From Escherichia coli (GTDB taxonomy: Bacteria; Pseudomonadota; Gammaproteobacteria; Enterobacterales; Enterobacteriaceae): 64,000 bases of DNA. Of this stretch, positions 13,029-14,298 are shown piece by piece (positions within the stretch are counted from its first letter, which is position 1; each line of letters begins with the position of its first letter). The position numbers and the translations under genes are program-made. The notes under the pieces are model-generated. The model was not told the DNA's origin. It ran no database searches and was given only the letters and a program-made list of their open reading frames with translations. The stretch lies in assembly GCF_003334815.1 (NCBI RefSeq), contig NZ_QOWO01000003.1. One strand, given 5' to 3'.

Positions 13029-13676
13029 ATGTATCTTGATACCAGCAACGTACAGAGCCTGAAGGAAAAGCTGCTGTTATGCGCGGTTAATGAATTTGCC
13101 GAATATGGTTATGAAGGGGCCAGGGTCGATAATATTGTTAAGGCTGCGGGGTGTAGTAAACAGACGGTTTATCATCACTTTGGTAATAAAGAAAATTTAT
13201 TTATTGAAGTACTGGAATATACCTGGAACGATATTCGACAAAAAGAAAAGGCCCTTGATTTCTCAGATTTTCCGCCACAAAAAGCCATTGAGAAAATTAT
13301 TGATTTTACATGGGATTATTATATTGCTAATCCCTGGTTTTTAAAAATTGTGCATAGTGAAAATCAAAGTAAAGGTGTGCATTATGCAAAATCACAGCGT
13401 CTCTTAGAAATTAACCATGCGCACTTGCAGTTAATGGAATCCTTATTGGATGAAGGGAAGAAACACAATATTTTTAAGCCAGATATCGACCCATTGCAGG
13501 TGAATATTAATATTGCTGCGCTTGGCGGATATTATTTGATCAACCAGCATACGCTTGGCCTGGTTTATCATATCAGTATGGTTTCCCCCCAGGCACTGGA
13601 AGCCAGACGTAAGGTCATCAAAGAGACAATCCTTAGCTGGCTTTTGGTTGACCCTTCATCTACCGCGCACGAATAA
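13029..13676 (+). CDS. TetR/AcrR-family transcriptional regulator (probable repressor of the divergent catabolic operon; intact counterpart of the K-12 ytfA remnant)
   Basis: N-terminal HTH region ([44 protein letters not shown]) typical of TetR proteins; start set at ATG 13029 (GGGGAAG upstream), whereas the ORF track begins at TTG 13005; 3' end overlaps the ytfB 3' end. Confidence 0.8.
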
Positions 13677-14298
13677 AACTGCCATCCGGCTGGCGGGTGA
13701 ACAGGACCTGTTGATTATTCCCCGTATCAATGGTTAAGCCCGTCACCACGCCGCTGGCGTTCTGGCGGATTTTCACCATTTGCCCGTTTTGCAAATTACT
13801 CAGCGGCTTACCCGCGCCTTCTACCTGCGCCATTGCATAGACATCGGTAGCGGGCAGTCCGTGGTCGCGGAACAGCTGCGCCATCGTTTTACCGGGTTCG
13901 ACACGGTAAGAGCGCCATTGATTATCAATTCCGCTATCTGGCTGGAATGGTTGTGTTTGGGTAGTTTGCGGCTGTTCTTCTGGCTGGCCTTCCTGTATAG
14001 GTTCTGGAGCGACCGGAGCCACCTGATCAGGATCATTTTGTGGTGTGACTAATTGCGCCCGCAGCTGTTCTTCTGTCGGCGGTTGTGATTGCGACTGAAT
14101 ATCTAACTGCGCTTCACGCGTCACCACCGGCGCGTTGGGCGTATCATCAGATGGAAGCAGAAATCCGACCACCAATATAATGGCGGCAATAATGATCCCC
14201 CGACGATGCATCGGCGGCAGCGGGTCCATGAAGCGAAAATTGTCCGGCGCGTGCCAGACTTTCTCCAGGGTTGGTTTTAGTTCAAAGCGCCCGGGCAT
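13660..14298 (-). CDS. ytfB: OapA/LysM-domain cell-division-associated protein YtfB
   Basis: Translation [42 protein letters not shown]... recognised as YtfB; start placed at the ATG giving 212 aa (the ORF track extends 12 codons upstream). Confidence 0.9.

What the first reader, a model, noticed from the sequence alone, without database searches (positions are those of the whole stretch)
13029..14298. Regulator gene and ytfB converge with overlapping 3' ends at the edge of the variable block
The TetR-family ORF ends at 13676 while the convergent ytfB ends at 13660, so the two coding regions overlap by 17 bp with no room for a terminator hairpin between them. From memory, K-12 retains only a short ytfA regulator fragment at this position next to ytfB, consistent with a deletion in K-12 that removed the operon and most of the regulator. 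If so, the right-hand deletion endpoint lies inside this regulator gene. The K-12 comparison is from recollection, not alignment.
Basis: partly seen in the sequence, partly recalled or inferred. Interest (0 to 1): 0.4.

Follow-up and report, generated by a model that had tools for sequence, protein, structure and literature searches.

The report
Intact ytfA regulator overlapping ytfB
This window carries the full-length version of a TetR-type regulator gene whose last 17 bases overlap the end of the cell-division gene ytfB; E. coli K-12's "ytfA" pseudogene is the rear 62% of that gene, left by old deletions, which is ordinary, largely already annotated strain-to-strain variation.

Summary
The TetR/AcrR gene (13029-13676, +) and ytfB (13660-14298, -) converge and share 17 bp, and no terminator-like hairpin lies at the junction. 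This is not unusual: 3 of 10 convergent pairs in the neighbouring 41.6 kb overlap. It is also old. The same 17-bp overlap occurs in E. albertii, E. whittamii, Salmonella, Citrobacter and Klebsiella spallanzanii.

K-12 ytfA is the 3' 403 nt of this gene (99% identical). The breakpoint lies inside the gene at a 7-bp direct repeat, CCGCCAC (13272-13278; the other copy is at 12731-12737 in the SDR gene). The cut removes the DNA-binding domain and keeps the whole C-terminal domain.

K-12 is not a simple deletion of this window's arrangement. It carries yjfZ, which is absent here, plus a decayed 102-bp SDR fragment. It derives from a yjfZ + MFS-transporter version of the operon through two deletions.

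Among 5,426 complete E. coli genomes, about 27% have the TRAP version found in this window, 31% have the MFS version, and 41% have the K-12 deletion (most of those also carry an IS609-family insertion).

The operon is ancestral at this locus. RefSeq already annotates the K-12 fragment as a TetR gene missing its N-terminus. Interest is low.

The parts
13029..13676 (+). Full-length TetR/AcrR-family regulator gene (215 aa). It is the intact ortholog of the K-12 pseudogene ytfA.
   Evidence: ORF. Pfam TetR_N at residues 19-61 (E 3e-14) and TetR_C_29 at residues 83-201 (E 4e-30). RefSeq annotation of near-identical genomes. 2350-member protein cluster at 99% identity.
13660..14298 (-). ytfB (OapA/LysM-like cell division protein, 212 aa).
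   Evidence: ORF. RefSeq 'cell division protein YtfB'. The Salmonella ortholog carries OapA_N and LysM_OapA.
13660..13676 (.). 17-bp tail-to-tail overlap of the two coding regions. The TetR stop codon TAA lies opposite the ytfB codons Phe-Ile (TTT ATT).
   Evidence: The same 17 bp overlap occurs in K-12, E. coli E69, E. whittamii, E. albertii, L008, K. spallanzanii, Salmonella and Citrobacter.
13272..13278 (+). CCGCCAC, the right-hand copy of the 7-bp direct repeat at which the K-12-type 541-bp deletion ends (codon 82 of the regulator, the boundary between the HTH and C-terminal domains).
   Evidence: Junction alignment and motif coordinates. K-12 homology starts at 13274.
12731..12737 (+). 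CCGCCAC, the left-hand copy of the same direct repeat, inside the SDR gene.
   Evidence: K-12 reads ...CAGCAGGTTAGCCAGCCACAAAAAGCC... across the junction.
12626..12727 (-). Part of the SDR (3-ketoacyl-ACP-reductase-like) gene that survives in K-12-type genomes as a decayed 102-bp island (76-85% identity, two in-frame stops).
12885..12906 (.). Perfect 8-bp inverted repeat ATCAACCA-N6-TGGTTGAT in the divergent SDR/TetR intergenic region. It is a candidate operator of the regulator and is deleted in K-12.
   Evidence: The core GATCAACCATCTrGTTGGTTG is invariant (apart from one A/G position) in 9 loci, including Entomohabitans and K. spallanzanii, while the flanking sequence diverges; two of the 9 loci differ in the last two bases of the right arm.
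3803..3834 (+). rplI intrinsic terminator hairpin. All haplotypes diverge immediately after it, so it marks the left edge of the variable block.
3835..6775 (-). TRAP transporter module (dctP, dctM, dctQ). Other genomes carry an MFS transporter here, with or without yjfZ.
6758..12858 (-). Five-gene enzyme block: FAD-dependent oxidoreductase, family-I CoA transferase, enoyl-CoA hydratase, xylose-isomerase-like TIM-barrel protein, and SDR. It is transcribed divergently from the regulator and is presumed to be its target.
   Evidence: The block is syntenic in other genera.
13569..13570 (.). Site at which an IS609-family element (tnpA + tnpB) sits in the ytfA remnant of 1745 complete E. coli genomes. 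It is not present in this window.

Best explanation
The window carries the intact, ancestral form of an enterobacterial locus. The order is rplI terminator, transporter module, five catabolic enzyme genes (- strand), a divergent promoter region with a conserved palindrome, a TetR-family regulator (+ strand), then ytfB (- strand).

The regulator's reading frame runs 17 nt into the 3' end of ytfB. Its last five codons are simply the antisense of ytfB's conserved C-terminal codons. More distant homologs stop 2-4 residues after the conserved SWLL motif, so the tail is probably a neutral extension created by loss of an earlier stop codon. It is fixed in position by ytfB's coding constraint.

K-12-type genomes (41% of complete E. 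coli genomes) descend from a yjfZ + MFS-transporter version of the locus by two illegitimate-recombination deletions. One, of about 7.3 kb, runs from just upstream of yjfZ into the SDR gene. The other, of 541 bp, lies between two CCGCCAC repeats and runs from the SDR gene to codon 82 of the regulator. Together they removed the operon, the promoter/operator region and the HTH domain. They left a 102-bp SDR island and the 403-nt 'ytfA' remnant.

Shown here: the coordinates, the homology, the junction sequences, the haplotype frequencies and the synteny. Inferred: the order of events, the deletion mechanism, repressor function through the palindrome, and that the overlap has no function of its own.
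For: K-12 alignment breakpoints are 3834 and 13274, with the SDR island at 12626-12727. The junction sequences carry the CCGCCAC repeat at 12731-12737 and 13272-13278. The RefSeq pseudogene note reads 'missing N-terminus'.

Intermediate haplotypes with yjfZ + MFS + operon + intact TetR exist (L004, L041). K-12 homology to them ends where the SDR island begins.

The same gene order, MFS-FAD-CoAT-ECH-TIM-SDR-TetR-ytfB-fklB, occurs in E. whittamii, K. spallanzanii, Entomohabitans, Salmonella and Citrobacter, and from the FAD gene onward on the truncated E. albertii contig.

The 17-bp overlap is identical in eight of the lineages examined. Entomohabitans has a 15-bp spacer and a rare E. coli allele has a 0-bp gap. 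The protein alignment shows a variable tail after SWLL and shorter ends in distant homologs.

Counts among complete genomes: 3149 full-length, 2227 K-12 junction, 2539 yjfZ, 1468 TRAP, 1686 MFS, 1745 with the IS insertion. The palindrome is conserved. The breakpoint coincides with the domain boundary.
Against: The SDR island is 15-24% diverged from every intact allele, whereas the adjoining ytfA remnant is 1-3% diverged. A single recent deletion from any sampled haplotype would not produce this. Explaining it needs an old event plus recombinational refreshing of the remnant, or an unsampled donor.

The retained repeat copy in K-12 reads CCAGCCAC, one extra base. The left junction has only imperfect homology and differs slightly between K-12 and EH53, so the exact mechanism is not proven.

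Haplotype proportions come from coverage thresholds and subtraction, not from per-genome typing. No expression or termination data were examined for a strain with the intact gene.
Confidence: 0.8

Rival explanations
1. One reading: K-12 is this window's arrangement minus one deletion spanning about 3.8-13.3 kb.
For: The left and right limits of K-12 homology (3834 and 13274) bracket exactly the operon plus the 5' part of the regulator.
Against: K-12 has about 980 bp (yjfZ and its upstream region) with no counterpart in the window, plus an internal SDR island. That yjfZ segment is shared with haplotypes carrying an MFS transporter, not a TRAP transporter.
Confidence: 0.03
2. The operon plus intact regulator is a horizontally acquired island in this strain, and K-12 shows the ancestral empty site.
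For: The block is variably present and has alternative transporter modules. One allele class is very divergent.
Against: The same operon sits between rplI and ytfB in Salmonella, Citrobacter, K. spallanzanii, Entomohabitans and E. whittamii, and next to ytfB on the truncated E. albertii contig. K-12 retains a truncated regulator without a start or HTH domain, and an SDR fragment with stop codons. These can only be remnants.
Confidence: 0.02
3. The conserved terminator-less overlap is functional. Convergent transcription (RNA polymerase collision or antisense pairing) couples expression of ytfB and the regulator. Read-through from ytfB, which is on the same strand as the operon, runs antisense through the regulator gene into the operon. 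The remnant is kept in K-12 because it supplies ytfB's 3' end.
For: The overlap length is identical across at least five genera. There is no intrinsic terminator on either strand near the junction. ytfB and the operon share a strand. A preprint reports that CRISPRi of the K-12 pseudogene ytfA changed expression of dapE (which it describes as a cell division gene) and bssS (10.64898/2025.12.20.695731). An effect on ytfB could explain this.
Against: Conservation of the overlap is explained by ytfB's conserved C-terminal codons alone. A rare E. coli allele (0 bp) and Entomohabitans (15-bp spacer) do without the overlap. In 1745 genomes an IS element splits the remnant 91 bp beyond the ytfB stop without apparent harm. 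Overlapping convergent pairs are common locally. No transcript data were examined.
Confidence: 0.1
4. The K-12-type haplotype was imported from an unsampled divergent lineage rather than arising within E. coli. That would explain the 15-24% divergence of the SDR island.
For: The island is roughly equidistant from all sampled alleles, with the best match (85%) to E. whittamii. The locus demonstrably receives very divergent tracts.
Against: yjfZ is reported to be restricted to E. coli and Shigella (PMC11057252). The yjfZ segment is shared at 96-98% with E. coli MFS haplotypes. Two stop codons in the island, and 10% divergence between islands of different strains, fit in-situ decay.
Confidence: 0.12

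Closest known systems
E. coli K-12 ytfA (b4205), annotated as a TetR/AcrR-family pseudogene
   Same: The sequence is the same over window 13274-13676 (99% identity), with the same 17-bp overlap with ytfB and the same neighbours ytfB-fklB-cycA. [quoted passage not shown]
   Different: The window has the complete 215-aa gene with the HTH domain, its promoter/operator region and the adjacent operon. K-12 lacks codons 1-81 and has yjfZ plus an SDR fragment upstream instead.
TetR-family repressors of CoA-dependent catabolic operons (for example Bacillus FadR, KstR2, AcuR)
   Same: It has the TetR_N HTH domain plus a C-terminal ligand domain. It is transcribed divergently from an operon containing a CoA transferase, an enoyl-CoA hydratase, an SDR and a flavoprotein. 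A conserved palindrome lies in the shared promoter region. Some pipelines name orthologs 'KstR2'.
   Different: All NCBIfam equivalog scores are far below their cut-offs (46.8 against 250 for the best hit), so it belongs to none of these named families. Its ligand, operator binding and substrate are unknown.
Other short convergent gene overlaps in E. coli (yjfP/ulaR, cysQ/ytfJ)
   Same: They are tail-to-tail overlaps of a few to about 17 bp without an intervening terminator, and they lie in the same chromosomal neighbourhood.
   Different: This overlap is the longest of the three (17 bp against 4 and 11 bp). One partner is a strain-variable gene that survives as a pseudogene in 41% of genomes.

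Membership tests
TetR/AcrR family transcriptional regulators | N-terminal TetR-type helix-turn-helix DNA-binding domain | tested here: met
   Pfam TetR_N PF00440, residues 19-61, E 3e-14.
TetR/AcrR family transcriptional regulators | C-terminal all-helical ligand-binding and dimerisation domain | tested here: met
   Pfam TetR_C_29 PF17938, residues 83-201, full model length, E 4e-30.
TetR/AcrR family transcriptional regulators | Binds a palindromic operator near its own or the target promoter, and is released by a ligand | not testable with these tools
   A conserved palindrome at 12885-12906 is a candidate operator. Binding and ligand were not tested.
Named equivalogs (FadR-Bacillus, RutR, BetI, AcrR, AcuR, SACE_7040) | Whole-protein score above the curated NCBIfam cut-off | tested here: not met
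   The best score is 46.8 bits against a cut-off of 250. All 13 hits fall far below their cut-offs.
K-12 ytfA as a truncated ortholog of this gene | Collinear, near-identical alignment of the remnant with the 3' part of the intact gene in the same genomic context | tested here: met
   Window 13274-13676 aligns with L001 6001-6403. The non-overlapping part is 99.2% identical, and the same ytfB/fklB flank follows.
K-12 ytfA as a truncated ortholog of this gene | Absence of the start codon and N-terminal domain in K-12 | tested here: met
   Homology begins at codon 82. RefSeq notes 'missing N-terminus'.
Microhomology-mediated (illegitimate) deletion | A short direct repeat at both endpoints in the parental sequence, with one copy retained at the junction | tested here: inconclusive
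   At the right-hand deletion, CCGCCAC lies at 12731-12737 and 13272-13278, and K-12 retains CCAGCCAC, one extra base. The left junction has only imperfect homology of about 25 nt and varies between strains.
YtfB / OapA-family cell division protein (the partner gene) | OapA_N and LysM-like OapA C-terminal domains | tested here: met
   NCBIfam OapA C-terminal match, E 1e-14, below the full-length cut-off. Precomputed Pfam OapA_N + LysM_OapA on the Salmonella and Citrobacter orthologs. RefSeq names it ytfB.

The most novel reading that the evidence does not exclude
The 17-bp terminator-less tail-to-tail junction, held unchanged from Klebsiella to Escherichia, acts as a convergent-transcription coupling device. 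Transcription of the cell-division gene ytfB runs antisense through the regulator gene and on into the same-strand catabolic operon, while regulator transcription interferes with the ytfB 3' end. Nutrient sensing and ytfB expression would then be linked, and the 'pseudogene' ytfA in K-12 would still matter as the ytfB 3' UTR.
Probability: 0.08. Interest if true: 0.45.

Novelty: already known. Interest (0 to 1): 0.15.

Why it matters
The value is mainly in getting the record straight. It fixes the exact origin of the K-12 pseudogene ytfA: its breakpoint, what was lost, and what the parent haplotype looked like. It shows that the rplI-ytfB interval in E. coli exists in at least four common forms.

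There are practical consequences. (i) yjfZ has been proposed as a universal E. coli/Shigella marker, yet it is found in only 47% of complete genomes. (ii) Phenotypes from perturbing 'ytfA' in K-12 may really reflect ytfB, because the two overlap. (iii) Strains like this one offer an intact regulator, operator and operon for working out an uncharacterised CoA-dependent organic-acid pathway that K-12 cannot be used to study.

None of this is surprising to a specialist.

Tried and rejected
- Terminators: the consensus scan found nothing at the junction. RNA folding of 261 nt downstream of each stop gave z-scores of -0.13 and -1.26, no better than shuffles. Rfam at E<=1 over 12700-14600 gave no hits. 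Inverted repeats inside the regulator's 3' part (13534-13573) are imperfect and have no U-tract.
- The simple single-deletion model is rejected by the alignment.
- The island-gain model is rejected by synteny.
- I looked for an intact SDR allele matching the K-12 island among 10 loci from 7 species. The best match was 85%, so the island's source remains unresolved.
- NCBIfam naming of the regulator and of yjfZ failed: no hit passed a cut-off, and yjfZ had no hits at all.
- A literature search for ytfA and yjfZ found no paper describing the breakpoints or the operon's function.
- The genome-contig scan did not return Salmonella or Citrobacter. I recovered both through exact-protein look-ups instead.

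Full report
**Observation.** The six-frame ORF list and the raw sequence show a 215-codon ORF on the + strand, from ATG 13029 (an alternative TTG lies at 13005) to TAA 13674-13676. On the - strand lies ytfB, from ATG 14298 to a stop whose + strand complement CTA occupies 13660-13662. RefSeq annotation of a 99.9%-identical genome gives the same two genes with the same overlap.

The + strand ORF is a bona fide TetR/AcrR protein. Pfam finds TetR_N at residues 19-61 and a full-length TetR_C_29 domain at residues 83-201. It reaches none of the curated NCBIfam equivalog cut-offs, so it is an unnamed family member.

**Is the overlap special?** No intrinsic-terminator-like site lies at the junction. 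Folding 261 nt beyond each stop gives energies no better than shuffled sequence. Rfam finds nothing. So there is indeed no room for a terminator, and no candidate nearby.

The arrangement is not rare, however. Among the ten convergent gene pairs annotated in the surrounding 41.6 kb, three overlap: yjfP/ulaR by 4 bp, this pair by 17 bp, and cysQ/ytfJ by 11 bp.

It is also ancient. The identical 17-bp overlap is present in E. coli E69, E. whittamii, E. albertii, a divergent Escherichia genome (L008), Klebsiella spallanzanii, Salmonella enterica and Citrobacter. Entomohabitans has a 15-bp spacer. A rare, very divergent E. coli allele has an 8-bp indel that makes the two stop codons abut with no overlap.

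The regulator's stop codon TAA lies opposite ytfB's Phe-Ile codons (TTT ATT), within the conserved ...SFIRAR C-terminus. The residues after the conserved SWLL motif vary between genera, and more distant homologs stop 2-4 residues after it. The simplest reading is a neutral C-terminal extension whose end point is pinned by ytfB's coding constraint.

**K-12 comparison.** Megablast against 5,426 complete E. coli genomes finds the region in 5,417 of them. Of these, 3,149 cover at least 80% of 12900-14500, meaning the regulator is full length. In K-12 strain EMG2 the match begins at window 13274.

Pairwise alignment gives three blocks:
- window 1-3834 matches K-12 through rplI and its terminator;
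- window 12626-12727 matches a 102-bp K-12 stretch at only 81% identity;
- window 13274 onward matches K-12 at 98%.

The K-12 fragment is annotated by RefSeq as 'TetR/AcrR family transcriptional regulator, incomplete, missing N-terminus'. It overlaps ytfB by the same 17 bp. So K-12 ytfA is the 3' 403 nt (62%) of this gene. The part that does not overlap ytfB is 99.2% identical to the window. The breakpoint falls at codon 82, so the HTH domain is lost and the whole C-terminal domain is kept.

**Why it is not a simple deletion.** Between the rplI terminator and the remnant, K-12 carries about 980 bp holding yjfZ (DUF2686) and its upstream region. This has no counterpart anywhere in the window. 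The 102-bp fragment of the SDR gene follows.

Other E. coli genomes supply the missing link. Strain 'ExPEC' (L004) and strain Z1323HEC0477 (L041) have rplI-yjfZ-MFS transporter-FAD oxidoreductase-CoA transferase-enoyl-CoA hydratase-TIM-barrel isomerase-SDR-TetR-ytfB. K-12's homology to these ends in the yjfZ upstream region, exactly where its SDR fragment begins. K-12 is therefore this yjfZ + MFS haplotype minus two segments.

At the right-hand junction the parental sequences carry the same heptamer, CCGCCAC, in the SDR gene (12731-12737) and in the regulator (13272-13278). K-12 reads ...CAGCAGGTTAGCCAGCCACAAAAAGCC... across it. This indicates a 541-bp deletion at a short direct repeat. That deletion also removed the shared promoter region.

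The left junction shows only imperfect similarity of about 25 nt and differs slightly between K-12 and strain EH53.

**Direction of change.** The order rplI-(EamA gene in Salmonella and Citrobacter)-MFS-FAD-CoAT-ECH-TIM-SDR-TetR-ytfB-fklB-cycA is found in E. whittamii, K. spallanzanii, Entomohabitans, Salmonella and Citrobacter. The E. albertii contig is cut within the FAD gene but shows the same order from there on.

The operon with an MFS transporter is therefore ancestral at this site. The K-12 state is a loss. The TRAP module of this window (3835-6775) and the yjfZ insertion are changes seen only within E. coli among the genomes sampled. All variants diverge immediately after the rplI terminator hairpin (window 3834).

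**Population frequencies (complete genomes).**
- TRAP dctP, as in this window: 1,468.
- MFS transporter: 1,686.
- K-12 junction: 2,227.
- yjfZ: 2,539.
- IS609-family element inserted in the remnant at window 13569: 1,745.

By subtraction, roughly 310 genomes have yjfZ plus the MFS operon. These numbers rest on 80%-coverage thresholds and subtraction, not on per-genome typing. The frequent IS insertion 91 bp beyond the ytfB stop argues that the remnant itself is dispensable.

**Unresolved.** The SDR island is 76-85% identical to every intact allele I could sample, whereas intact alleles differ from one another by 4-14%. It has two in-frame stops. The islands of K-12 and EH53 differ by 10%. The adjacent remnant, by contrast, is 97-99% identical to the window.

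My best guess is an old deletion haplotype. The island would decay neutrally, while the remnant, being contiguous with the core gene ytfB, is repeatedly overwritten by homologous recombination with intact alleles. An unsampled foreign donor is the alternative. I could not test either.

**How the intact locus probably works (inference).** The regulator is transcribed divergently from the enzyme/transporter operon. The intergenic region contains a perfect inverted repeat, ATCAACCA-N6-TGGTTGAT (12885-12906). Its core is almost invariant across nine loci from Escherichia, Klebsiella and Entomohabitans, although the surrounding sequence is poorly conserved; two loci differ in the last two bases of the right arm. 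This is what a TetR operator looks like.

The likely mechanism is repression of the operon, and probably of the regulator itself, relieved by a pathway intermediate. The gene content (family-I CoA transferase, crotonase, SDR, a fumarate-reductase-like flavoprotein, and an organic-acid TRAP or MFS transporter) points to catabolism of an unidentified carboxylic acid through a CoA thioester. No paper in the searchable library describes it.

[quoted passage not shown] A 2025 preprint treats K-12 ytfA as a pseudogene and reports that CRISPRi against it altered dapE and bssS. Given the overlap with ytfB, an effect through ytfB is a plausible confounder. A genomic SELEX study lists the yjfZ/ytfA spacer, marked HNS, with promoter-like sequences for both genes in its table of constitutive RpoD promoters (PMC3946193).

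**Verdict.** The K-12 remnant idea is right, and the breakpoint is now mapped to 13272-13278. The single-deletion scenario and the claim that most of the regulator was removed are wrong. The feature is already annotated, so interest is low.

Noticed in passing
window 12885-12906 (also GTGATCAC at about 12917-12924): A perfect inverted repeat, ATCAACCA-N6-TGGTTGAT, lies in the divergent SDR/TetR promoter region. Its core is nearly invariant across Escherichia, Klebsiella spallanzanii and Entomohabitans while the flanks diverge, which makes it a likely operator of the regulator. The K-12 deletion removes it.
   Followed up: partly
window 3835-6775, compared with L041 9179-11639 and L006 2322-3750: The transporter module of the operon is swapped between strains. 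This window has TRAP dctPQM (1,468 complete genomes). Others have an MFS transporter (1,686 genomes), as do Salmonella, Citrobacter, Klebsiella spallanzanii and Entomohabitans. All variants diverge right after the rplI terminator and rejoin at the 3' end of the FAD-oxidoreductase gene.
   Followed up: partly
absent from the window; L001 4936-5730: yjfZ was proposed in PMC11057252 as a conserved signature gene of E. coli/Shigella for qPCR. Megablast finds it in only 2,539 of 5,426 complete E. coli genomes (47%), and it is missing from this window's locus.
   Followed up: partly
window about 12800-13690 (versus L004) and about 12800-14440 (versus L003): A second, deeply divergent allele class of the regulator and ytfB exists (68-85% nucleotide identity; about 316 genomes have a best match below 80%). 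It is roughly equidistant from Salmonella, Citrobacter and E. albertii, and has sharp mosaic boundaries, one of them at the TetR/ytfB junction. In it the regulator is 212 aa and the two stop codons abut. The donor is unknown.
   Followed up: partly
window 13569-13570 (insertion site in other genomes); L002 4251-5997: An IS609-family element (tnpA plus a TnpB RNA-guided endonuclease gene) sits in the ytfA remnant of 1,745 complete genomes, including O157:H7 and O111. It lies within an imperfect hairpin (13534-13573).
   Followed up: yes
window 12626-12727, compared with L001 5895-5996: The SDR fragment left in K-12-type genomes is much more diverged (15-24%) than the adjoining ytfA remnant (1-3%). 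This is unexplained.
   Followed up: partly
window about 23062-23072 (cysQ/ytfJ): Another convergent pair in the window overlaps by 11 bp. yjfP/ulaR, just upstream of the window, overlaps by 4 bp.
   Followed up: no
window 12025-14298, - strand: ytfB and the catabolic operon are on the same strand, with the regulator gene lying antisense between them. No - strand terminator-like site was found between the ytfB stop and 12906, so read-through from ytfB could in principle cross the regulator gene in antisense and enter the operon.
   Followed up: no
L004 16090-18773: Strain 'ExPEC' (isolated from mussels) has two extra hypothetical genes inserted between cycA and ytfE. Neither the window nor K-12 has them.
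   Followed up: no
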